Origin: Rhizobium sp. Q54 | GTDB taxonomy: Bacteria > Pseudomonadota > Alphaproteobacteria > CADEGL01 | Assembly: GCA_945860095.1 (NCBI GenBank) | Contig: CAMAPP010000001.1 | Location: 3,741 to 67,740 of the forward strand | DNA: 64,000 bases | Direction: 5' to 3' | In this document: positions 33,290 through 59,865 of the stretch, piece by piece | Layout of the letters: the number at the start of each line of letters is the position of its first letter | Position numbering within the stretch: position 1 is the stretch's first letter | Translations under genes and position numbers: made by a program | The notes under the pieces: model-generated | Told to the model about the DNA's origin: nothing | Database searches by the model: none | What the model saw: only the letters and a program-made list of their open reading frames with translations

Positions 33290-34415
33290 ACTGCGGACGC
33301 TCGACGCGCTCAGCATCGCGAGCCGGGCTGATTCGTTCGTCGCCATCGCGGCCGACATCCCCGGCGAGTATTGGACCAAGGAACATTTCCTGGTCGAGCG
33401 GCCGGGGAAATGGCGCCTGTCCTTCGCGGCCTGGGACGGCGATACGCCCATTGCCTATGCGGTGCTATCGCAACCCGACGCCGGGCGCGTCCATCTTCAT
33501 CATTTCATGGTCGCGCGAGCGCATCGCGCCAGGGGGCTGGGGCGGCGCATGCTCGCGGAAATGCTGGCGCGCGCCCGCGCTTCGGGCGCCGCGCGCTTGA
33601 CTCTCAAGGTGCTATCGGGCAATGAGCGGGCCATCGCCTTTTACCGCGCGAACGGATTTAACCCCGTCGGCCGGGAAGGCGAATACGCGGTGCTGGAGCG
33701 CGCGCTCGGCGCAGCGGTCGCGCGCGCCGCCGTCGCCATCCACCAGCCGAATTACCTGCCTTGGCTCGGCTATTTTTGGAAGATGGCCCAGGCCGACATC
33801 TTCGTCTTTCTCGACAATGTCCAATTCACCAAGGGCGGATACACCAACCGGATGCAGATCGATGCCGGCGGCGTTGCGCGCTGGCTGAGCGTGCCAGTAA
33901 TGGTGCGCCTCGGCATGCGCATCGATCAGATCCGCCCCAGCAGGCCGGATTGGCGCGCCGCCCATCTCGACACGCTCGCGACCTATTACGCAAAGGCGCC
34001 GGCGTACCGCGAGGTGCGCGACTGGCTGGCCGAGGAATACGAACGCGCGCCCGCCACGGATTTGGCGGCGATCAATCGAAGCCTCGTCGAAGCGATCGCC
34101 GCGTCGCTTGGCCTCAAGACCCGCTTCGTCGCCTCGTCCGAAATTCCGACCGGCGACGCGGACGGCGATATGCGTCTTGTGCGCATCGTCGAACACTTGG
34201 CGCCCGGCGGGGTCTATCTGTCGGGCAAGGGCGGCGACAATTATCAGAACGCCGAGCGCTTCGTCGAAGCGGGGCTTGAGTTGCGCCACACCGACTATCC
34301 GATGCCGCGTTACGATCAGGGCAGGCATGATTTTCTCGGCGGGCTATCGGTGATCGATGCCGCTTTCCGTCTCGGCTGGGCGGGTGTGGCCGAATTGCTG
34401 CGCGTTTCCGCGTGA
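33282..34415 (+). CDS. GNAT acetyltransferase domain fused to a WbqC-family domain
   Basis: GNAT core (ARAHRARGLGRRMLAEM ... AFYRANGF) followed by AIHQPNYLPWLGYFWKMAQADIFVFLDNVQF (WbqC signature). Confidence 0.65.
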   Translation: MAELRTLDALSIASRADSFVAIAADIPGEYWTKEHFLVERPGKWRLSFAAWDGDTPIAYAVLSQPDAGRVHLHHFMVARAHRARGLGRRMLAEMLARARASGAARLTLKVLSGNERAIAFYRANGFNPVGREGEYAVLERALGAAVARAAVAIHQPNYLPWLGYFWKMAQADIFVFLDNVQFTKGGYTNRMQIDAGGVARWLSVPVMVRLGMRIDQIRPSRPDWRAAHLDTLATYYAKAPAYREVRDWLAEEYERAPATDLAAINRSLVEAIAASLGLKTRFVASSEIPTGDADGDMRLVRIVEHLAPGGVYLSGKGGDNYQNAERFVEAGLELRHTDYPMPRYDQGRHDFLGGLSVIDAAFRLGWAGVAELLRVSA

Positions 34416-35644
34416 GCACGGTGTTGCGCGTGCTGTGTCTCGATATCGAGGGCGGCTTCGGCGGCTCCTCGCGCAGCCTGTTCGAGTCGATCCGGCACAT
34501 GGACCGTTCGGCCGTATCGGTCGAGATTTGGTGCCGGCGCGACGGCCCGGTCGTGCCGCGTTACCGCGCCCTCGGTGTCGCCTGCCGTGTCGTGCCGGCC
34601 ATGGCGCATTACAGCGCCCTGCCGCGATTCTCGCGCAATCTCGTCGCGCTTGCCGGCTTCGTTCGGCGGTTTGCAGCATCGCGCGCATTTCGTCGCGAGC
34701 TCGCAGCCGAAACGAATGCGCGCTTCGACCGCGTGCATTTCAATCACGAGGCGCTGTTCCTTCTCGCGCGTTGGCTTCGCCCCCGGACGCGCGCGCCCTT
34801 CATCGCCCATGTGCGGACCAATCTCCTGCCCGGCCCCTTCGCCCGTTGGCAGGCGCGAACCCTGGCGCGCGCGACGGACGCCCTGGCGTTCATCACGCGC
34901 AACGAGGTGGCGACGTTCCGCGCCCATGGCGGCAGGCCGCGCCTGGCTCGCATCATTCACAATATCGCCACCGCGCCCGATGCCGGTGCGGCCGGGCAGG
35001 CCGGAAAATCGGACGCCGGAAAATCGGACGCCGGGAAATCGGACGATTGGGAAAATGACGCACGGCTGCGTATCGCGTGTCTTAGCAATTATTCCTACGC
35101 GCGCGGCCTCGACCGGTTGCTCGATATCGCCGAGGAATTGCGTGCCCAAGGCCAGGCCGATGCCCTGTTCGTCGTCGCAGGGCGCATGGCGCTGACGCGC
35201 TCGCTGCCGGGGCTCTTGGGCGAGATCGGACGGCGCGGCGGCACGTTGGCGGATGCGGCCGAGGCGCGGGGGTTAGGCGGTTATTTTCGCTTCCTCGGTC
35301 ACGTCGAGAATCCCGATCGCGTCCTGGCCCAGTGCGCCGCGTTGATCAAGCCCACGCGCGAAGCCAATCCCTGGGGCCGCGATGTAATCGAGGCCTTGGC
35401 GGCGGGCCGCGCCGTGCTTTCATGCGGCACCGATGCGACCTTCGTGGAAAGTGGCGTCACGGGTTATTTGCAGGATGAATTTGACGCAGCCGCCATGGCC
35501 CGCGAGGTCGCGCGTCTTGCCGGCGACCGCGAAGCCCTGCGGCGCATGGGCGAGACGGGCAGGGCGCGGGTGGCACGGTTGTGCGATGGCCCGTCCCGCG
35601 CGCGGGACTTGCTTGATCTTTGGCGCGAGGCGGTCCGGCCATGA
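34412..35644 (+). CDS. Glycosyltransferase family 4
   Basis: GT-B fold with a C-terminal E-x7-E-like region. It carries an internal AGKSD x3 repeat insertion. Confidence 0.75.
   Translation: MSTVLRVLCLDIEGGFGGSSRSLFESIRHMDRSAVSVEIWCRRDGPVVPRYRALGVACRVVPAMAHYSALPRFSRNLVALAGFVRRFAASRAFRRELAAETNARFDRVHFNHEALFLLARWLRPRTRAPFIAHVRTNLLPGPFARWQARTLARATDALAFITRNEVATFRAHGGRPRLARIIHNIATAPDAGAAGQAGKSDAGKSDAGKSDDWENDARLRIACLSNYSYARGLDRLLDIAEELRAQGQADALFVVAGRMALTRSLPGLLGEIGRRGGTLADAAEARGLGGYFRFLGHVENPDRVLAQCAALIKPTREANPWGRDVIEALAAGRAVLSCGTDATFVESGVTGYLQDEFDAAAMAREVARLAGDREALRRMGETGRARVARLCDGPSRARDLLDLWREAVRP
35000..35044 (+). repeat. 15-bp x3 in-frame tandem repeat (GCCGGAAAATCGGAC) inside the GT4 gene
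   Basis: Direct reading gives gccggaaaatcggac gccggaaaatcggac gccgggaaatcggac, encoding AGKSDAGKSDAGKSD. Confidence 0.8.
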
Positions 35645-42131: not shown

Positions 42132-43258
42132 AGATCTGCCAGCTTTGCGCCGTCGATTTCACGCTCCATCATTTTCTGTTGCCGTTGATGGCCGGAATGA
42201 AGGCGGCGGGCCACGAAGTGATCGGGGTGTGTTCCGACGGCGCGCTTGTTCCCGCGGCGCGCGCGGCGGGCTTTCGCATCGAATGCGTACCCATTGCGCG
42301 CAGCCACGATGTGCGCCGCCACTTCGGAACCTATCGCCGACTGGTCGAATTGTTTCGCCGCGAGCGCTTCGACATCGTCCACGTTCACACGCCCGTCGCC
42401 GCGCTGATCGGGCGCCTGGCCGCCTGGCGCGCCCGCGTGCCGGTCGTGGTTTACACCGCGCACGGATTCTATTTTCACGAACGCATGCCGCCGCCGCGAC
42501 GCGCGATGCACATCGCGCTCGAATGGCTGGGCGGCCGGCTGACCGATGTCCTTTTCACCCAGGCCGAGGAGGACGCCGCCGCCGCGCGCCGGCTTGGCCT
42601 CTGCCGCTCGGGGCGCATCCAGGCCATCGGCAACGGGGTCGATCCGGCCCGCTTCATGCCGCGCGACGGCGCGTACCGCGCGCGGGTGCGCGCGGCCCTG
42701 GACACGCGCGAGGGCGATGCCGTCATCCTGATGGTCGGTCGTCTGGTCGCGGAAAAGGGTTATGTCGAATTGCTGCGCGCCATGCGCGGTGTCCCGGCGA
42801 TTCTTTGGGTCGTGGGGGAGCGCCTTGGAAGCGATCACGCGACGAGCATCGACGGCGCGCTGGCTGAACTCGAACGCACACCTGATCTTAAATCGCGTAT
42901 CCGGCTTCTCGGTTACCGCGCGGATGTCGCCGACCTGATGGCCGCGGCCGATATTTTCACCCTGCCGTCTCACCGCGAGGGCATGCCGCGTTCAATCATC
43001 GAAGCCATGATGTGCGGGCTGCCCGTCGTGGCCACCGATATTCGCGGCTCGCGCGAGGAGGTCGTGGAAGGCGAAACCGGTTTGATGGTGCCGGTCGGCG
43101 ATGAATCGGCCTTGACGCACGCCTTGGCGCGTCTTGTGCGCGAGCCGGATTTGCGCGCGCGCTTGGGGGCAAAGGGCCGCGCGCGAGCGCTCGGCCTCTA
43201 CGACGAAGCCAAGATCGTCGCCCGGCAAATCGACGCCCTTGGCCTCGCGCGGCGATGA
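42128..43258 (+). CDS. Glycosyltransferase family 4
   Basis: GT-B fold with a C-terminal EGMPRSIIEAMMCGLPVVATD block. Confidence 0.75.
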   Translation: MKICQLCAVDFTLHHFLLPLMAGMKAAGHEVIGVCSDGALVPAARAAGFRIECVPIARSHDVRRHFGTYRRLVELFRRERFDIVHVHTPVAALIGRLAAWRARVPVVVYTAHGFYFHERMPPPRRAMHIALEWLGGRLTDVLFTQAEEDAAAARRLGLCRSGRIQAIGNGVDPARFMPRDGAYRARVRAALDTREGDAVILMVGRLVAEKGYVELLRAMRGVPAILWVVGERLGSDHATSIDGALAELERTPDLKSRIRLLGYRADVADLMAAADIFTLPSHREGMPRSIIEAMMCGLPVVATDIRGSREEVVEGETGLMVPVGDESALTHALARLVREPDLRARLGAKGRARALGLYDEAKIVARQIDALGLARR

Positions 43259-43268
43259 TGATCGCCCC

Positions 43269-44144
43269 ATGAAGATTGCCGTCGCCGGCGCCACGGGCAA
43301 AACCGGGCGGCATCTGGTGGCGCGATTGTGCTCGGACGGCCATAGGGTCGTCGCCCTTGGCCGCGATCCCGCCCGTTTCGCCGCCGTGGATTCGCGCGCG
43401 GACCGGCGGCTGGCGGATTTCACCGACGCGCGCGCCCACGCGGCCGCGCTGGAGGGCGCCGAGGCCGTCGTCAATTGCGCGGAAGCCCGCTTCACCGAAG
43501 CCGTGCTGGCGGCCTTGCCGCCCGACTGCCGACGCCTCGTGCTCACGGGCACCATGCGGCGTTTCCTCGCCGAGCCCGACGAGCCCGGCCGCCATGCCGC
43601 CCACGCCGAGACGGCGCTCGACCGGCATCTTCGCGCGCACCCCGGGCGCACGGGAATCATCGTCCATTTCGGCATGATCTACGGCCCGCCGGACGACGCA
43701 AATGTCGAACGGCTTTTGGCGGTCGTTCGGCGCTGGCCTTCCTGGCTGCCGCTGATAGCGCCCCTGCCCGGCGGCGGCCGGGCCACCGTGCAGCCCATAT
43801 ACATGGACGACGCGGTGGAGACCTTGCAGCGCGCACTCGACCGGGACGATTCGGGCCCGCCGATTACCGCCGCCGGACCGCCCATCACCTATGCCGAGAT
43901 GGTCAGGCATTGCGCGCGCGCGCTCGGCCGGTGCTCGGTCGTCCTGGCGATGCCCGCCGCGCTGCCGGCGCTGGCGATCAGTCTGGGCATGCGCCTGCCC
44001 TTCGATCCCAAGGAATGGCGGCGCACGGCCGAAAGCAAGCGCCAAAGCCTCGATCCCCTCCACGCCCGGCTGGGCATTGCGCCGCGGAGTTTTGCCGAGG
44101 GCCTCGCGGCCAAGCTCGCGCGCCTTGATCGCGCCGACATCTAA
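43269..44144 (+). CDS. NAD(P)-binding NmrA/epimerase-like protein
   Basis: N-terminal Rossmann motif IAVAGATGKTGRHLV is present. Confidence 0.6.
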   Translation: MKIAVAGATGKTGRHLVARLCSDGHRVVALGRDPARFAAVDSRADRRLADFTDARAHAAALEGAEAVVNCAEARFTEAVLAALPPDCRRLVLTGTMRRFLAEPDEPGRHAAHAETALDRHLRAHPGRTGIIVHFGMIYGPPDDANVERLLAVVRRWPSWLPLIAPLPGGGRATVQPIYMDDAVETLQRALDRDDSGPPITAAGPPITYAEMVRHCARALGRCSVVLAMPAALPALAISLGMRLPFDPKEWRRTAESKRQSLDPLHARLGIAPRSFAEGLAAKLARLDRADI

Positions 44145-44292
44145 TCCCACCCAGCGCCCGATCCCGCCCATGCCCGATCTCGGCCAGTCCCGTCCCACCC
44201 ATGTCCGATCTCGGCCACGCGCCCATCGCCGCTGGCGCACCACTCTCGGGCCGCGATTGATTCCTCGCGCGCCTTCGAGGATACAGGCGGGT

Positions 44293-48561: not shown

Positions 48562-50148
48562 ATGACCGATGACCGATTGGTTTCTGTTCGCCGCGCCTTG
48601 CTGTCGGTTTCGGACAAGGCTGGGCTCGTCGAACTCGGCCGTTTCCTTGCCGGGCGCGAAATCGAGATTCTCTCGACCGGCGGCACCGCCCGCGCCCTGG
48701 TCGCGGAGGGAATTGCGGTCACCGAGGTGTCGGCGCACACGGGGTTTCCCGAGATTCTCGACGGCCGGGTGAAAACGCTGCACCCCGCGATTCACGGCGG
48801 CATACTCGCGCGCCGCGAGCTGGCCGAACATCGCGCCGCGATGGCGGAGCACAAGATCGCGGCCATCGATCTGGTGATCGTAAACCTGTATCCCTTCGAG
48901 GCGACCCTCGCCTCGGGCGCCGGCTTCGACGACTGCATCGAGAACATCGATATCGGCGGCCCGGCCTTGATTCGCGCCGCGGCCAAGAACCACGTCCATG
49001 TGGCGGTCGCGACCGATCCGGCCGATTACGAGGCGATCATGGCCGAAATGGCCGCGACCGGCGGCGCGACGACCATGGCCTTGCGCCGCAACCTCGCGGC
49101 CCGCGCCTATTCGCGCACGGCCGCCTACGACGCGGCGATCGGCGATTGGTTCGCGCGTTGCGAGGGCGAGGAATTTCCCCAACGCCTGGTGATCGCGGGC
49201 AAGCGCGCGCAGATGATGCGTTACGGCGAAAATCCGCACCAAGCGGCCGCCTTCTATCTCGGCGGCGATTGGCGCCCGGGCGTGGGCTCGGCCCGCCAGC
49301 TTCACGGCAAGGAGCTGAGTTACAACAATCTCGTCGATGCCGACGCGGCAATCGAGCTGGTCGCGGAGTTCGAACGCCCGGCGGTCGCCATCGTCAAGCA
49401 CGCCAACCCGTGCGGCGTGGCGACGGCCGACGCGTTGACCGAAGCGTATGGCTTGGCCCTTGCCTGCGATCCGGTCAGCGCCTTCGGCGGCATCGTCGCG
49501 GTCAATCGTCCACTCGACGCCGAGACGGCGAGGGTCATCGCCAAATTGTTCGCCGAGGTGGTCATCGCTCCTGGATATATGGCGGACGCGCTTTCGGCCC
49601 TCGCCGGCAAAAAAAATCTTCGGTTGCTCGATATCGGGCACATGCCGTCGCCCGGGGATTCCGCGCGCACATTCCGTTCGTTGGCCGGCGGATTTCTGGT
49701 GCAGACGCGCGACAATCGCCGCGTCGGCCGGGCGGATCTGACGTGCGTGACCAAACGGGCGCCGAGCGCGGCGGAAATCGACGACTTGCTGTTCGCCTTC
49801 GCCGTGTGCAAGCACGTGAAGTCGAATGCCATCGTCTACGCCCGCGACGGCGCGACGGTCGGGATCGGCGCCGGACAAATGAGCCGGATCGATTCGACCC
49901 GCACGGCCGCGCTTAAGGCCGAGGATGCCGCCCGGCTATCGGGTGGGGGCGAGCCGCGCACCCGGCGTTCCGTGGTCGCCTCGGACGCGTTCTTCCCGTT
50001 CCCCGACGGCTTGATCGCCGCCGCACAAGCGGGTGTCACGGCCGTCATTCAGCCCGGCGGCTCGGTCCGCGATGCCGAGGTGATCGCCGCCGCCGACGAC
50101 CGGGGCTTGGCCATGGTGTTCACGGGCGTGCGGCATTTTCGCCACTAA
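48562..50148 (+). CDS. purH: Bifunctional AICAR transformylase / IMP cyclohydrolase
   Basis: [22 protein letters not shown] and [15 protein letters not shown] are present. Confidence 0.9.
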
Positions 50149-51460
50149 GTTTGGCGCCACTAAGTTTGGTGCCGCCGCTACCCTCGCCGCCCGGCAAGCG
50201 CACCGACAACAACAGCACAAGGCCCACGACGAGAAAGACGAGAGTCGTCGCCATGCCCGCGCGCTGGCTGCCGGTTTCGACCGTGACCCAGGCGAGGATC
50301 AGGGGGCCGAGAAACGCGGTCGCCTTGCCGGTGAAGGCGTAGAGTCCGAAATATTCGCCGGCTTGGTCGCGCGGCACCAGGCGCGCCATGAGGGATCGGC
50401 TGGCGGCCTGGGCGGGGCCAAAAAACGTTCCGAGCCCAAGGCCAAGCGTCCAGAACATGGTTTTCGATTCGACGACCAGAAGCCCCGCGCCGATGGCCGT
50501 GAGCGCCACGAGCGCCATGATGATCGTCGGCTTCGGCCCGACCCAGTCGTCGATCCACGCAAAGCCCGCAGCACCCAGACCGGCCGTGACGTTGAGCGCG
50601 ATGCCGAACAGGATGATTTCGTCGAAGGCCATTCCGAAGGTGCCGGCCGCATAAATGCCGCCGAAGGCAAAGATGGTGTTGAGGCCGTCGGTATAAATCA
50701 TCCGGGCCAGCAGGAAACGACCGATGCGTGCCTCGCGCGGCAAGCGCTTCAACGTGCGCCAGAGATCGGCCAAGCCCTCGCAAACGGCGCGCCGGAGGCC
50801 GATACCCGTCGGGCCACGATCGGGTGTCCACAAAAGAATCGGCAGGGAAAACACCGCGAGCCACAACGCCACCAGAAGGGTTGTAGCGCGCACGGGCTCC
50901 TGCGCGGCCGGATCGAGCCCGAAGGGCGGCGGCGACGCCTGGATGAAACCCCAAAGCGAAATCGCAAGGCAGCACAAGCCGCCCGCATAGCCAAGACCCC
51001 AAGCCCAACCCGAGAGCCGGCCAAGCCTTCCGGGCGGAGCCAAATCGACGAGCATCGCGTTGTAAAACACCTGGCCGAGCTCGAAGGCGAGCGTGCCGAG
51101 CGCAAACCAGACGAGTGCCCATGCGGTATCCGAGGGCGTGGGCTCGGTGAACCAGAGCATCGCCGCGGACGCGGCGCAGAGCCAGGTGAAGACCGCAAGC
51201 CACGGCTTGCGCGCACCCGCCCGGTCGGCGACCGCGCCCAGGACCGGCGAAAGCACCGCGACCGCCGCCCCCGCGCCACCAACCGCCAAACCCCATTGCG
51301 CGGTTCCGGTTTCGACGTCCGCGGCGACCGCGCGCGCAAAGAACGCCGCGAACACGAAGGTCTCGATGACGGTCGGGAACGCGGAATTCGCCCAATCGTA
51401 AAGGCACCAAGACACGAGGCCACGGCGGGACGCACCCGCCACGGGCACCGTCCGCGTCAT
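50120..51460 (-). CDS. MFS transporter
   Basis: About 12 hydrophobic segments. Its start ATG overlaps the stop of the upstream gdh gene (ATGA on the minus strand). Confidence 0.7.
50140..50169. repeat. Perfect 15-bp x2 tandem duplication (CGCCACTAAGTTTGG) at the purH/MFS convergent overlap
   Basis: Read directly from the sequence. It duplicates the purH stop codon and a [10 protein letters not shown] unit at the C-terminus of the minus-strand MFS protein. Confidence 0.8.
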
Positions 51461-56758: not shown

Positions 56759-57019
56759 TCCCCTTCGGCGCGCCGCTCAATCCGCGGCGAAGCGCAAAGG
56801 CGAGAGATCGCACCGGTGCTCGGTGACGGCGAAATGGCGATCGAGCGGCGGAGAAGCGCGCTGGCCGCAGTCCTCGCGCGGACATAGCCGGCAATTGATC
56901 CCGATGAGCGTGCGATTGACGGAATTGTCGAGATCGAGGTCATCGGCATAGACGATACGCGCGGTGGAATGACCGCGAAGGCGCAACAACAGCGAGAGTG
57001 AAAGGTGGATTGACGTCAA

Positions 57020-57229
57020 ATGAATCCAACCGAATCGCGCTATTGGATCATCGGCGGCGAATACGAATCCGCCGCCTTCGAGCGCCTGGTGCCGGGCACA
57101 AGGACATTAGTCGGGCCGTTCGAGCGCAAGGAATTGGCCGAAGCCGCATGGCGCGATAGGACACAGGCCACGCGCCCCAGTTGCCAGACCCGCCACACCA
57201 TCGCCGAGGAACGCGCCAATCACATCTGA
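57020..57229 (+). CDS. Small hypothetical protein, possibly DUF4170-like
   Basis: A 69-aa ORF (YWIIGGEYE ... AEAAWRDRTQATR) vaguely resembling the alphaproteobacterial DUF4170 pattern. Confidence 0.4.
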   Translation: MNPTESRYWIIGGEYESAAFERLVPGTRTLVGPFERKELAEAAWRDRTQATRPSCQTRHTIAEERANHI

Positions 57230-57262
57230 CGCGCGGCGGCGGAGCAACGGGTTTCCGGAAAC

Positions 57263-57337
57263 TGGAGCGGGAGAAGGGATTCGAACCCTCGACCCTCACG
57301 TTGGCAACGTGATGCTCTACCCCTGAGCTACTCCCGC
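57263..57337 (-). tRNA. tRNA-Gly(GCC): tRNA-Gly (anticodon GCC), with encoded CCA
   Basis: The reverse complement reads GCGGGAGTAGCTCAGGGGTAGAGCATCACGTTGCCAACGTGAGGGTCGAGGGTTCGAATCCCTTCTCCCGCTCCA, which folds into a cloverleaf with anticodon loop TTGCCAA. Confidence 0.85.
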
Positions 57338-57370
57338 TTTCGGGCGGGATATTACGTCCTCGGAGCGTCA

Positions 57371-57483
57371 TTGCAAGTCATAGCGCAAGTCATGGCGGCA
57401 AGTCGTGGGCGCAAGTCAGGGCCGCAAGTCATAGCCACAAGTCATGGCCGCAAGTCGTGGGGGCAAGCCTTGCGGGCAAGTTC
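57371..57483. repeat. About 9 copies of a degenerate 13-bp direct repeat (consensus GC-CAAGTC-RTGG) between tRNA-Gly and the proX-like gene
   Basis: CAAGTC cores occur at 57374, 57386, 57399, 57412, 57425, 57438 and 57451, with degenerate CAAGCC/CAAGTT at 57464 and 57477. Spacing is 12-13 bp. Confidence 0.7.
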
Positions 57484-57564
57484 GGGACGCCGCTCCGGCC
57501 GAGGGTGTCAACGCGCCCCACACCCGCCTTCCAGACCAAGCCCGATCCGTTTTATCGTGCCGCC

Positions 57565-58095
57565 ATGGCATACACACCCGATCGATTGCTCGCGCGCTTG
57601 GGCGAGCTCGGCATCCCCTACACCAATCACCGGCACCCGCCACTGTTCACCGTGGCCGACAGCAAGGCCCTGCGCGGCACGCTTCCGGGCGGGCATTGCA
57701 AAAGCCTGTTCCTCAAGGGCAAGCGCGGCGAGCTCTACCTCGTGGTTGCGCTCGAGGATCGGGCGATCGACCTGAAGCGCCTGCGCAAGACGCTCGGAAC
57801 CGGCAGCCTGTCCTTCGGCGGCCCGGAGCTGTTATTCGAAATCCTGGGCGTGCGCCCAGGTGCCGTGACCCCGTTCGGCCTCGTCAACGACACCGAACGC
57901 AAGGTCGCGGTCGTCCTTGATTCGGCGATGCTCGCGCGCGACCCGCTCAACTATCACCCCCTGACCAACGACATGACGACGGCGGTGCCGTCCCAGGGAT
58001 TGCTCGCCTTTATCGCCGCATGCGGCCATGTGCCGCGCGTTCTCGATTTCGATGCGCCGGACGACGCCGCGTCCGAGCCCAAACCGGCCGGATAA
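57565..58095 (+). CDS. YbaK/ProX-like aminoacyl-tRNA deacylase domain protein
   Basis: LPGGHCKSLFLKGK ... GAVTPFGL are typical of prolyl-tRNA editing domain proteins. Track entry 57457 is over-extended across the repeat array. Confidence 0.7.
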   Translation: MAYTPDRLLARLGELGIPYTNHRHPPLFTVADSKALRGTLPGGHCKSLFLKGKRGELYLVVALEDRAIDLKRLRKTLGTGSLSFGGPELLFEILGVRPGAVTPFGLVNDTERKVAVVLDSAMLARDPLNYHPLTNDMTTAVPSQGLLAFIAACGHVPRVLDFDAPDDAASEPKPAG

Positions 58096-58176
58096 GCCCG
58101 GCTGAATGAGCCCGGCTGGGTAAGCCCGGCCAGATAAACCCCGCCGGATAAGCCCGGCTGGATGAGCCATGACCAC
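58081..58176. repeat. About 6 copies of a 14-bp direct repeat (TRAGCCCGGCYRGR) starting at the proX-like stop codon
   Basis: Units are taagcccggctgaa, tgagcccggctggg, taagcccggccaga, taaaccccgccgga, taagcccggctgga and tgagccatgacca. Each unit begins with TAA or TGA. Confidence 0.7.
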
Positions 58177-58270
58177 GCCGGGCGCGCCGGGGCCGTGAGC
58201 GCCGGGGTTGCAAGCGGAGATGCGCGCGGCCAAATATGGGTGAACGGACAACCCTCGGAAAGCGAGCCCC

Positions 58271-59185
58271 ATGGAAGCCCTTATCGGCGCCGCCGCGGCG
58301 CCCCAAGACTTGATCAAAGACAGCGACAATCAGCGATTCATGGCCGATGTCATCGAAGTGTCGAAGACGACGCCCGTGCTCGTCGATTTCTGGGCGCCGT
58401 GGTGCGGGCCATGCAAGCAGCTGACGCCCACGCTCGAAAAGGTCGTCAAGGCGGCCGCGGGCAAGGTCAAGCTAGTCAAGATCAATATCGACGAAAACCA
58501 GGAACTGGCGCAGCAGTTGCGCATCCAGTCGATTCCGGTCGTCTATGGCTTCAAGGACGGCCGGCCGGTCGACGGCTTCGTCGGCCTGCAAACCGAAACC
58601 CAAATCCGCCAGTTCGTCGAGCGCCTGATGGGCGGCGGCGAACATGTCGGCCCCGATCCCATCGACGCGGCGCTGGCCGAGGCCAAGGCCGCGCTCGAAG
58701 CCAAGGACGCAGGCACCGCCACGGCCATCTACGGCCAGATCCTGGCCCACGATCCCAAGAACGTAAAAGCGATCGCGGGTCTTGCGCGCGCGCGCGTGCT
58801 CGCGGGCGACCCCGCCCAGGCGCGGCAATATCTCGACGCCGTGCCGAAGGAAAACGCCGGCGACGCCGATGTCGCGGCGGCGCGCTCGACCATCGAGTTG
58901 GCCGAGAAGGCGCAACAGTCGTCGGGCAAACTCGGCGAGTATGAAGCCCGCCTGGCACAAGACCCGAACGACCATCAGGCGCGGTTCGATTGGGCGCTGG
59001 CGCAATACGCGGCCGAGAACACCGAAGGGTCGATCGACGCATTGCTCGAAATTATCCGCCGCAAGCGCGATTGGAACGAAGACGCCGCGCGCAAGCAATT
59101 GGTGCAGATTTTCGACGCGCTCGGCTTCGGCCACCCGCTCGTGTCCGCCGGCCGGCGCAAATTATCCGCGATTCTGTTCAAGTGA
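58271..59185 (+). CDS. Thioredoxin-domain plus TPR co-chaperone (YbbN/CnoX-like)
   Basis: WAPWCGPCK thioredoxin motif followed by a TPR-like C-terminal half. Confidence 0.8.
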   Translation: MEALIGAAAAPQDLIKDSDNQRFMADVIEVSKTTPVLVDFWAPWCGPCKQLTPTLEKVVKAAAGKVKLVKINIDENQELAQQLRIQSIPVVYGFKDGRPVDGFVGLQTETQIRQFVERLMGGGEHVGPDPIDAALAEAKAALEAKDAGTATAIYGQILAHDPKNVKAIAGLARARVLAGDPAQARQYLDAVPKENAGDADVAAARSTIELAEKAQQSSGKLGEYEARLAQDPNDHQARFDWALAQYAAENTEGSIDALLEIIRRKRDWNEDAARKQLVQIFDALGFGHPLVSAGRRKLSAILFK

Positions 59186-59205
59186 GGCGCGAGAGCGCCG
59201 ATACC

Positions 59206-59865
59206 ATGGGCGAGAACGCGCGCGACGGCGAAGTTCTACCGGAAATATTGCCGATCTTTCCCCTGAGCGGCGTTCTGCTGCTGCCGGGCGCGGAGCTTCC
59301 TCTGCACATTTTCGAGCCGCGCTACCGCGCGATGACGCGCGACGCGCTGGCGGGGCCGGGCTTGATCGGCTTGATCCAACCGCGCGCGGACGCCGCGCCC
59401 GACCACCCGCAACCCGAAATCTATCCCACCGGCTGCATGGGACGGATAACAGAATGCCGCCAGACCGGAGACGGGCGCTATCACATGACACTCATCGGCA
59501 TCTGCCGCTTCCGCATCCACGACGAATTGCCCCTGCTCGATGGCTATCGCCGGGTGACGCCGAATTACGCCCCCTTCATGGGCGATCTGGCGCTGGGTCG
59601 CGACGCGCGCGTCGACCGCGACCGGCTTTCGGGCGCACTGGCGGCCTATTGCGCCAAGCGCAATTTCACGGCCAATTGGGACGCGATCAAGCAGATCTCC
59701 GACGAGCGGCTGATCTCGAGCCTTGCCATGCTGTGCCCGTTCGCGGCGAGCGAGAAACAGGCGCTGCTTGAAGCCGCCGATTTGACGGAGCGCGGCCGAG
59801 TCGTGATCGCGCTGCTGGAAATGGCCTTGCTCGAGGGTGGCGAAAGCCGTCCCGTCAAGCACTGA
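59206..59865 (+). CDS. LON substrate-binding (Lon N-terminal) domain protein
   Basis: [26 protein letters not shown] is typical of the Lon N-domain. Track entry 58990 is over-extended. Confidence 0.7.

What the first reader, a model, noticed from the sequence alone, without database searches (positions are those of the whole stretch)
58081..58176. Six-copy 14-bp direct repeat beginning at the proX stop, every unit starting with a stop codon
The units (TAAGCCCGGCTGAA, TGAGCCCGGCTGGG, TAAGCCCGGCCAGA, TAAACCCCGCCGGA, TAAGCCCGGCTGGA, TGAGCC...) each start with TAA or TGA. Because the period is 14, stops fall in all three frames. The first unit overlaps the last codons and stop of the proX-like gene. 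Each unit contains the palindromic CCCGGC/GCCGGG halves, so the array could form hairpins and act as a terminator or insulator, a REP-like element, or a slippage-prone tract.
Basis: seen in the sequence. Interest (0 to 1): 0.5.

Follow-up and report, generated by a model that had tools for sequence, protein, structure and literature searches.

The report
Young 14-bp tandem repeat after proX
The six 14-base repeats after the proX-type editing gene are real. They are a recent, lineage-specific tandem duplication of the gene's stop codon plus one arm of a hairpin, an ordinary bacterial minisatellite with no sign of a dedicated function.

Summary
A 14-bp head-to-tail array lies at 58079-58168: one diverged coding unit, five full units and a 6-nt partial unit. 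Every non-coding unit starts with TAA or TGA, and the stops fall in frames 0,2,1,0,2,1.

Comparison with relatives explains it. In relatives with 66-77% identical ProX, the stop codon is followed within 4-10 nt by a conserved promoter of the downstream thioredoxin-TPR gene (GGGGTTGCAA-N18-AAATAT). The 93% relative has only unit 0, unit 1 and the partial unit. The window lineage carries four extra units. A 96% relative has an intergenic gap 28 nt (2 x 14) longer.

The repeated unit is the stop codon plus the left arm (GCCCGGC) of a hairpin. The right arm (GCCGGGC, 58177-58183) stayed single-copy. The "stop in every unit" is therefore a by-product of what was duplicated.

Other tests:
- There is no T-run and no C>G bias.
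- Rfam gives no match.
- The unit is not dispersed in the window.
- Both strands fold.
- The predicted fold differs between two haplotypes.
- Copy number is identical in 12 independent same-species assemblies.

Verdict: a decaying minisatellite made by slippage. It is probably neutral and of low interest.

The parts
57565..58095 (+). ProX/YbaK-type aminoacyl-tRNA editing gene (176 aa from the ATG). Its last codons and TAA stop form units 0 and 1 of the array.
   Evidence: Pfam PF04073 tRNA_edit, E = 4.8e-28. Gene callers in 12 public contigs call the same 176-aa product. Homologues are named Ala-tRNA(Pro) deacylase.
58079..58092 (+). Unit 0 (CCAAACCGGCCGGA). It is a diverged, coding copy (…PKPAG) that forms the left half of the first hairpin.
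   Evidence: It matches the other units at 8-10 of 14 positions. The 93% relative L001 lacks 6 nt here (EPAG instead of EPKPAG).
58093..58162 (+). Units 1-5, five full 14-bp copies, each starting with TAA or TGA. Unit 1 carries the gene's stop codon. Units 2-5 (58107-58162, 56 nt) are absent from the closest relative.
   Evidence: Searches give the units. L001 reads U0-U1-U6 only.
58163..58168 (+). Partial unit 6 (TGAGCC). It is the 3' flanking partial repeat, homologous to TCAGAC in L001.
   Evidence: U6 plus its flank, TGAGCCATGACCAC, matches L001's TCAGACATGACCGC at 11 of 14 positions, counted by eye from the sequences.
58177..58183 (+). Single-copy right arm GCCGGGC. It is perfectly complementary to the GCCCGGC core of units 1, 2, 3 and 5. 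It is the other half of the ancestral hairpin whose left arm was amplified.
   Evidence: Inverted repeats I1 and I7-I9. L001 has AGCCCGGC…18 nt…GTCGGGCT at the same place.
58184..58207 (+). A second small local duplication (GCGCCGGGG at 58184-58192 and again at 58199-58207, period 15). It is absent from L001 and lies just before the promoter.
   Evidence: Alignment A1 shows a 15-nt gap in L001.
58208..58237 (+). Conserved sigma-70-like promoter of the thioredoxin-TPR gene: -35 TTGCAA at 58208-58213, an 18-nt spacer, and -10 AAATAT at 58232-58237.
   Evidence: GGGGTTGC.A and GCCAA(A/T)TATG are invariant across 10 sequences with 66-100% ProX identity (raw contexts). Promoter function is inferred from the consensus and its conservation. 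The simple scan's TATAAT rule did not call it.
58271..59185 (+). Downstream thioredoxin + TPR gene (304 aa).
   Evidence: Pfam Thioredoxin, TPR_19 and TPR_20. The gene order is the same in all relatives examined.

Best explanation
The array is a young, lineage-specific minisatellite.

Ancestral state. The proX stop codon sat a few bases in front of the promoter of the thioredoxin-TPR gene. In the common ancestor of this species and its 93% relative, a short insert appeared there. It carried a hairpin: left arm GCCCGGC directly after the stop codon, right arm G(C/T)CGGGC. It also carried two imperfect direct copies 14 nt apart.

Expansion. Mispairing between those direct copies during replication, helped by the hairpin-prone CCGG cores, duplicated the 14-bp segment 'stop codon + left arm'. 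Four extra units were added in this lineage. Probably six were added in a sister lineage.

Consequences.
- Each unit begins with TAA or TGA because the duplicated segment contains the stop codon.
- The stops rotate through all three frames because 14 is not a multiple of 3.
- Translation still ends at the first TAA. The promoter lies beyond the array. The duplication therefore costs nothing and persists.
- Since then the units have diverged by point mutation to 77% identity, which has damped further slippage.

Function. The array most likely has no dedicated function.

Shown: the repeat, its absence or shortness in relatives, its position between the stop and a conserved promoter motif, the single-copy right arm, and the absence of terminator, rut or dispersed-family features.

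Inferred: the slippage mechanism, the promoter's activity, and neutrality.
For: Polarity of change:
- Six relatives (L093, L094, L002, L003, L005, L006; 66-77% ProX identity) have 4-10 nt between the stop and GGGGTTGCAA.
- L001 (93%) has U0-U1-U6 only. Its anchor-to-anchor distance is 124 nt against 201 nt in the window: 56 nt for four units, plus 6 nt, plus 15 nt.
- The contig of P0001 (ProX 96%, Trx 98%) has a stop-to-start gap of 203 nt against 175 nt. The difference is 28 nt, or 2 x 14, with the same gene ends.

What was amplified:
- The single GCCGGGC at 58177-58183 complements the core of units 1, 2, 3 and 5.

The same process next door and elsewhere:
- A 13-bp array at 57373-57480 has about 9 copies here and 2.3 in L001. 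It differs by exactly one unit among same-species assemblies, 130 nt against 117 nt.
- A 15-bp duplication spans the stop codon of purH at 50146-50148. A 16/31-bp array begins at the stop of the gene ending at 44144.
- Unrelated metagenome contigs carry analogous 14-bp arrays. They start in the last codons plus stop of an arginine deiminase, a HAD hydrolase and a glucose/sorbosone dehydrogenase.

No constraint signal:
- The array has 2 polymorphic sites in 90 nt. By eye from the SNP list, its flanks look similarly variable.
- Both SNPs move units 1 and 2 towards the sequence of unit 5, as intra-array conversion would.
- The predicted fold differs between the two haplotypes.
- Seven of the 14 unit positions are invariant, so invariant T1 and A3 are not special. 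The only change within the stop triplet among the full units (U1-U5), A to G in U2, is a transition that keeps a stop.

Literature:
- Direct-repeat-mediated de novo tandem duplication by replication slippage is described in PMC4169377.
- Intergenic tandem repeats whose first unit lies within a gene end, flanked by partial repeats, are described for Borg elements in PMC9879509.
Against: - Copy number is identical in 12 independent assemblies that differ from the window by up to about 4% in flanking DNA. This could reflect either decay of slippage or selection for six units.
- The array does fold more stably than shuffled sequence (z = -3.3).
- The array lies about 40-130 nt upstream of a promoter, where it could in principle affect expression.
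- The +28 nt variant could not be read at sequence level, because no DNA is held for that sample.
- Neutrality cannot be demonstrated from sequence alone.
- Only 64 kb of this genome was available to test for dispersed copies.
Confidence: 0.72

Rival explanations
1. RNA-level element. The hairpin array at the 3' end of the proX message acts as a U-tract-less terminator or insulator that shields the trx-TPR promoter from read-through. Alternatively it acts as a REP-like 3' stabiliser that blocks exonucleases.
For: - The predicted structure is stable: -43.5 kcal/mol, z = -3.3.
- The first hairpin holds the stop codon in its loop. It folds at -13.5 kcal/mol with z = -3.8 and is present in all same-species contigs and in L001.
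- The array lies directly downstream of a stop codon and upstream of the next gene's promoter.
Against: - There is no T-run and no terminator-like site.
- The minus strand folds similarly.
- The minimum-energy fold is not preserved between haplotypes.
- Six relatives manage with 4-10 nt between stop and promoter, so no such element is needed at this locus.
- Four extra left arms share a single right arm, which adds little to a terminator.
Confidence: 0.14
2. DNA-level regulatory array. The repeats lie about 40-130 nt upstream of the trx-TPR -35 box. They could be binding sites for a regulator, or could tune promoter strength through copy number, as a promoter-proximal variable repeat.
For: - Position relative to the conserved promoter motif.
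- Copy number differs between lineages: about 2, 6 and probably 8 units.
- Copy number is constant within the species.
Against: - The units are imperfect (77% matches).
- The 14-bp period does not match the helical repeat.
- The array is absent from all more distant relatives that keep the same promoter.
- Polymorphism is no lower than in the flanks.
- Known phase-variable promoter repeats, from general knowledge, are short, perfect and variable within populations. That is not seen here.
Confidence: 0.08
3. Member of a dispersed repeat family (REP/BIME-like element or MITE) that inserted after proX.
For: - The unit is a GC-rich near-palindrome in an extragenic position.
- Similar 14-bp arrays exist in unrelated metagenome contigs.
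Against: - Outside the array the window has only 8 hits at 3 mismatches and none at 2 or fewer; the array's own five hits bring the total to 13, against 5.0 +/- 2.3 expected for the whole window.
- Rfam has no match.
- The difference from L001 is exactly whole units in register, not an element with terminal repeats.
- The metagenome hits were found with a pattern that demands two tandem units. They sit next to unrelated genes in unrelated sequence.
Confidence: 0.04

Closest known systems
Bacterial intergenic minisatellites / VNTR loci (units of about 10-100 bp, as used for MLVA typing)
   Same: - Head-to-tail imperfect copies of a 14-bp unit in an intergenic region.
- Flanked by partial copies.
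- Copy number differs between related lineages: about 2, 6 and probably 8 units.
- The neighbouring 13-bp array varies by one unit within the species.
   Different: Copy number of this array is fixed in all 12 same-species assemblies. As it stands it would be a poor typing marker.
Borg-element tandem repeats (PMC9879509)
   Same: - Intergenic tandem repeats whose first unit lies within or partly within a gene end.
- Flanking partial repeats.
- Unit lengths mostly not divisible by three when intergenic.
- Recent and independent origin.
- Some are predicted to form hairpins.
   Different: - Borg repeats are perfect, A-rich and pervasive across an archaeal extrachromosomal element.
- This array is GC-rich and decayed to 77% identity.
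- It lies in a bacterial chromosome, where such arrays are only mildly enriched: 4 per 64 kb against 5 per 457 kb in relatives.
Direct-repeat-mediated de novo tandem duplication by replication slippage (PMC4169377)
   Same: The segment that was duplicated is bordered by short direct repeats 14 nt apart (AAGCC … GAGCC). This is the geometry described for slippage-born repeats.
   Different: Those cases are two-copy duplications inside a beta-lactamase gene under antibiotic selection. Here the array is multi-copy, non-coding and shows no evident selection.
Rho-independent terminators and REP/BIME elements at gene 3' ends
   Same: GC-rich stem-loops directly after a stop codon.
   Different: - There is no U-tract.
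- The unit is not dispersed in the window.
- The structure is not conserved in relatives.

Membership tests
Minisatellite / VNTR (tandem repeat born by slippage) | Head-to-tail copies of one unit, significantly more periodic than chance | tested here: met
   TRF period 14, 6.1 copies, score 100. There are 56 of 76 lag-14 matches against at most 44 in simulations.
Minisatellite / VNTR (tandem repeat born by slippage) | Copy number differs between related genomes by whole units, in register | tested here: met
   L001 lacks exactly units 2-5, 56 nt. The P0001 contig's gap is +28 nt (gap length only, no DNA).
Minisatellite / VNTR (tandem repeat born by slippage) | Copy-number polymorphism within the species | tested here: not met
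   All 12 same-species assemblies have 201 nt between the anchors. The adjacent 13-bp array does vary, 130 nt against 117 nt.
Minisatellite / VNTR (tandem repeat born by slippage) | Partial or diverged copies at the array edges (the seed direct repeats) | tested here: met
   U0 matches the other units at 8-10 of 14 positions, and there is a 6-nt partial U6. Both are present in L001.
Intrinsic (Rho-independent) terminator | GC-rich stem-loop | tested here: met
   Hairpins are predicted.
Intrinsic (Rho-independent) terminator | Run of T (U) immediately 3' of the stem | tested here: not met
   There is no TTT between 58050 and 58300. The scan reports no site there.
Intrinsic (Rho-independent) terminator | Transcript 3' ends at the site | not testable with these tools
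   This needs Term-seq or 3' RACE on this uncultured organism.
Rho-dependent terminator (rut site) | C-rich, G-poor, weakly structured RNA | tested here: not met
   C = G = 25 of 76 nt in the array, so C/G is about 1.0. The RNA is strongly structured.
REP / BIME-like dispersed extragenic palindromes | Many copies dispersed in intergenic regions of the same genome | tested here: not met
   The window has only 8 hits outside the array at 3 mismatches and none at 2 or fewer; with the array's own five hits the total is 13, against 5.0 +/- 2.3 expected. Only 64 kb could be tested.
REP / BIME-like dispersed extragenic palindromes | Match to a described repeat or RNA family | tested here: not met
   Rfam finds only the tRNA at the gathering threshold. 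At E <= 10 nothing is credible.
Phase-variable contingency repeat (simple sequence repeat) | Short (1-9 nt) perfect units with copy number variable within populations | tested here: not met
   The unit is 14 nt at 77% identity. Copy number is invariant in 12 assemblies.
Structured non-coding RNA | Structure conserved, with covariation, across relatives | tested here: not met
   The array is absent from relatives. The minimum-energy fold differs between the two haplotypes. Both strands fold.

The most novel reading that the evidence does not exclude
Arrays that start at a stop codon and are built from a GCCCGGC-type hairpin arm may be a recurrent class across unrelated bacteria. This window shows three tandem duplications that touch stop codons. 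Metagenome contigs show analogous 14-bp arrays at the ends of an arginine deiminase, a HAD hydrolase and a sugar dehydrogenase gene. If the class is real, there could be a specific hairpin-driven mutational hotspot at gene 3' ends. Alternatively, multi-hairpin 3' tails could be selected as U-tract-less terminators, insulators or mRNA stabilisers in GC-rich genomes. The evidence does not exclude this. However, the metagenome pattern forced two tandem units with TRA in each, so no enrichment could be measured.
Probability: 0.1. Interest if true: 0.5.

Novelty: new member of a known kind. Interest (0 to 1): 0.2.

Why it matters
It matters little in itself. It is a clean worked example of how a bacterial minisatellite is born. 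Relatives preserve a graded series:
- no insert;
- a two-copy seed with a hairpin;
- six units;
- probably eight units.

The series shows that the striking "stop codon in every unit, in all three frames" is a by-product of which segment was duplicated.

It is also a caution for annotation. Such arrays can break short-read assemblies: one contig starts exactly at the array edge. Their hairpins can be mistaken for terminators or REP elements.

Tried and rejected
- Rfam search of the whole window at the gathering threshold, and of 57200-58400 at E <= 10: only the tRNA.
- Terminator and promoter consensus scan of 57000-59400: nothing at the array.
- Rho rut idea, prompted by six evenly spaced C-rich units: rejected. 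C/G is 1.0 and the RNA is structured.
- Strand-specific RNA structure through G-U pairs: rejected, because the minus strand folds with z = -2.3. The DNA fold is weak, z = -1.65.
- Metagenome scan with the conserved promoter string, to find intermediate strains: 0 hits.
- DNA of the 96% relative's 46-kb contig: not held, so its probable 8-unit array could not be read.
- Look-up of the purH product, to compare the 15-bp stop-spanning duplication across strains: not on record.
- CsrA/RsmA-type GGA-motif sponge: considered only from memory. It was not pursued, because the array is absent from close relatives and most GGA motifs sit inside stems.
- tRNA-linked island or integration site: rejected. 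The tRNA-Gly / proX / trx order is conserved in L001.
- MITE insertion: rejected, because the difference from L001 is whole units in register.
- Assembly artefact: rejected by 12 concordant independent assemblies.

Full report
**1. The observation**

The sequence at 58079-58168 is a 14-bp tandem array. Tandem Repeats Finder gives 58084-58168, period 14, 6.1 copies, 77% matches and score 100. Periods 28 and 42 score equally well.

In register with the stop codon the units are:
- U0 CCAAACCGGCCGGA (58079-58092, the last codons of the gene)
- U1 TAAGCCCGGCTGAA
- U2 TGAGCCCGGCTGGG
- U3 TAAGCCCGGCCAGA
- U4 TAAACCCCGCCGGA
- U5 TAAGCCCGGCTGGA
- U6 TGAGCC, partial

The TAA of U1 (58093-58095) is the stop of the upstream gene. 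The six stops fall in frames 0,2,1,0,2,1.

Lag-14 self-identity is 56 of 76. The maximum in 30 simulated 64-kb sequences is 36-44. Twelve independent public assemblies carrying the identical ProX protein contain the same array, so it is not an assembly artefact.

**2. Context**

- The upstream gene (57565-58095, +) is a PF04073 aminoacyl-tRNA editing domain protein. Its homologues are named Ala-tRNA(Pro) deacylase or 'prolyl-tRNA synthetase associated domain' protein.
- Downstream (58271-59185, +) lies a thioredoxin-TPR gene.
- A tRNA-Gly(GCC) lies upstream on the minus strand at 57263-57337.
- The organism is an uncultured alphaproteobacterium. The nearest genome record is a MAG labelled only 'Alphaproteobacteria bacterium'.

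**3. What relatives show**

I fetched 80 loci encoding ProX relatives. I also fetched contigs encoding the identical or near-identical protein.

In relatives with 66-77% identical ProX (L093, L094, L002, L003, L005, L006), the stop codon is followed after only 4-10 nt by GGGGTTGCAA. Eighteen bases later comes AAATAT or AATTAT, and then the thioredoxin-TPR start. In alignment A1, GGGGTTGC.A and GCCAA(A/T)TATG are invariant in all ten sequences.

I read this as the sigma-70-type promoter of the thioredoxin-TPR gene. In the window the -35 is at 58208-58213 and the -10 at 58232-58237. This is an inference from consensus and conservation. The tool's stricter TATAAT rule did not call it.

The ancestral intergenic region therefore had essentially no spacer between stop and promoter.

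The closest genome, L001 (ProX 93%), reads …GAGCCGGCCGGA TAAGCCCGGCTGAA TCAGACATGACC…. That is U0, U1 and the partial unit only. Between the same anchors L001 has 124 nt and the window 201 nt. The 77-nt difference breaks down as:
- four whole units in register (56 nt);
- a 6-nt coding insertion (EPAG becomes EPKPAG);
- a separate 15-nt local duplication just before the promoter.

A further relative (P0001; ProX 96%, thioredoxin-TPR 98%) has the same gene ends. Its stop-to-start gap is 203 nt instead of 175 nt. The extra 28 nt equals two units. Its DNA is not held, so this rests on gap length alone.

The series 0, about 2, 6 and probably 8 units, polarised by the outgroups, shows that the array is a recent expansion in this lineage.

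**4. What was amplified**

The complement of the unit core, GCCGGGC, occurs once, at 58177-58183. It is perfectly complementary to GCCCGGC in units 1, 2, 3 and 5. L001 has the same hairpin in single copy: AGCCCGGC, an 18-nt loop, then GTCGGGCT.

The amplified 14-mer is therefore 'stop codon + left arm of a hairpin', and the right arm stayed single. The segment is bordered by short direct repeats 14 nt apart (AAGCC in U1, GAGCC in U6). This is the geometry of slippage-born duplications (PMC4169377).

- Each unit starts with a stop because the gene's stop was inside the duplicated segment.
- The stops cover all frames because 14 is not divisible by 3.
- TGA alternates with TAA through an A/G transition that happens to keep a stop.
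- Seven of the 14 positions are invariant among U1-U5. The invariance of T1 and A3 therefore carries no signal.
- In L001 the partial unit reads TCAGAC, which is not a stop.

**5. Tests of function**

Terminator:
- There is no run of three or more T between 58050 and 58300.
- The scan finds no terminator-like site.

Rut site:
- C/G is 1.0, and the RNA is structured.

Structured RNA:
- The plus strand folds at -43.5 kcal/mol, z = -3.3.
- The minus strand also folds well, z = -2.3.
- The minimum-energy fold changes between the two natural haplotypes.
- Only the first hairpin is constant: CGGCCGG/AUAAGC/CCGGCUG, with the stop codon in the loop, at -13.5 kcal/mol and z = -3.8.
- Rfam gives nothing.

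Dispersed family:
- The window has 13 hits at 3 or fewer mismatches, and 5 of them are the array itself. About 5.0 +/- 2.3 are expected, and no hit outside the array has 2 or fewer mismatches.

Constraint:
- Same-species contigs differ from the window by up to about 4%.
- The array has 2 polymorphic sites in 90 nt; by eye from the SNP list, its flanks look similarly variable.
- Both SNPs (58105 A>G and 58120 G>A, in L081 and L085) make units 1 and 2 end like unit 5. This is what intra-array conversion would produce.
- Copy number is the same in all 12 assemblies. I attribute this to the units having diverged to 77% identity, though selection for six units cannot be excluded.

**6. The same process nearby and elsewhere**

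- A 13-bp array (GCAAGTCATGGCC, about 9 copies, 57373-57480) lies on the other side of proX. L001 has 2.3 copies. Same-species assemblies differ by exactly one unit, 130 nt against 117 nt.
- On the minus strand this array begins at TTGCAA-N16-TAATAT, 11 nt before the tRNA-Gly. It appears to be an amplification of that promoter's -35 segment.
- A 15-bp duplication (CGCCACTAAGTTTGG x 2.3) contains the stop of purH at 50146-50148. A 16/31-bp array begins at the stop of the gene ending at 44144.
- Arrays with period >= 10 and >= 3 copies number 4 in this 64-kb window and 5 in 457 kb of outgroup loci. This is a mild excess, partly inflated because the window was chosen for having one.
- A metagenome scan used a two-unit pattern (AGCCCGGCYRRRTRAGCCCGGC). 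It found 35 loci, and one more in viral contigs. Seven of them are 14-bp arrays of 2.4 or more copies.
- In three of those seven, the array starts in the last codons plus stop of an unrelated, genuine gene: an arginine deiminase, a HAD hydrolase and a glucose/sorbosone dehydrogenase.
- The pattern forces a stop triplet in each unit, so these hits show only that the architecture arises independently. They do not show that it is enriched.
- Borg-element tandem repeats show the same habit of starting within gene ends, with flanking partial repeats (PMC9879509).

A simple reading follows. A duplication that begins inside the last codons and ends beyond the stop leaves the protein unchanged. Gene 3' ends are therefore permissive sites.

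**7. Verdict**

The array is a lineage-specific, decaying minisatellite. It was produced by slippage on a hairpin-bearing seed between the proX stop and the promoter of the next gene.

The origin is well supported. Neutrality is the most likely reading but remains an inference. The best-supported rivals are an RNA-level insulator or stabiliser role (about 0.14) and promoter-proximal tuning (about 0.08).

It is a new member of a known kind, and interest is low.

Noticed in passing
window 57373-57480: A second tandem array lies on the other side of proX: 13-bp units (GCAAGTCATGGCC), about 9 copies. The 93% relative has 2.3 copies. Same-species assemblies differ by exactly one unit, 130 nt against 117 nt, so it is a genuine copy-number polymorphism. 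On the minus strand it starts at TTGCAA-N16-TAATAT, 11 nt before tRNA-Gly. Each unit therefore repeats the likely -35 segment of the tRNA promoter.
   Followed up: partly
window 50140-50173: A 15-bp tandem duplication (CGCCACTAAGTTTGG x 2.3, 94% identity) contains the TAA stop (50146-50148) of the purH-like gene 48562-50148 (AICARFT/IMPCHase). It creates a second in-frame TAA. A look-up of the protein in other assemblies found no record.
   Followed up: partly
window 44142-44217: A 16/31-bp tandem array (TCCCACCCATGCCCGATCTCGGCCAG…) begins directly at the TAA stop of the NAD-binding epimerase-like gene 43134-44144. It is a third case in this window of a repeat anchored at a stop codon.
   Followed up: no
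window 35000-35045: A near-perfect 15-bp x 3.1 repeat (GCCGGAAAATCGGAC) lies inside the open reading frame 34412-35644. It is in frame and gives a five-residue AGKSD repeat.
   Followed up: no
window 58135-58148 and 58200-58209: Unit 4 differs from the consensus at three positions (TAAACCCCGCCGGA). Its variant stretch AACCCCGCCG is 90% complementary to CGCCGGGGTT just before the -35 box. This pattern could come from a template-switch (quasi-palindrome) mutation, or from chance.
   Followed up: no
window 58208-58237, and loci L001-L006, L093, L094: A strongly conserved motif, GGGGTTGCAA-N18-AAATAT/AATTAT, precedes the thioredoxin-TPR gene in relatives with 66-100% identical ProX. In most relatives it starts 4-10 nt after the proX stop. 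It is probably that gene's promoter.
   Followed up: partly
L095 position 1 (= window 58168): One metagenome contig (ENA ERZ27280257) begins exactly at the 3' edge of the 14-bp array. This suggests the array broke that assembly, perhaps because of mixed variants in the sample.
   Followed up: no
L117 1590-1652; L119 791-834; L120 4446-4495; L131 39-128: Unrelated metagenome and viral contigs carry 14-bp arrays with the same GCCCGGCC core and 3-6 copies at 93-100% identity. In L117, L119 and L120 the first unit includes the last codons and stop of an arginine deiminase, a HAD hydrolase and a glucose/sorbosone dehydrogenase gene. The search pattern biased the hits towards such arrays.
   Followed up: partly
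window, whole (64 kb), against L001-L080 (457 kb): Arrays with period >= 10 and >= 3 copies number 4 in 64 kb here and 5 in 457 kb of relatives' loci. This hints that the lineage is somewhat prone to short tandem duplications.
   Followed up: partly
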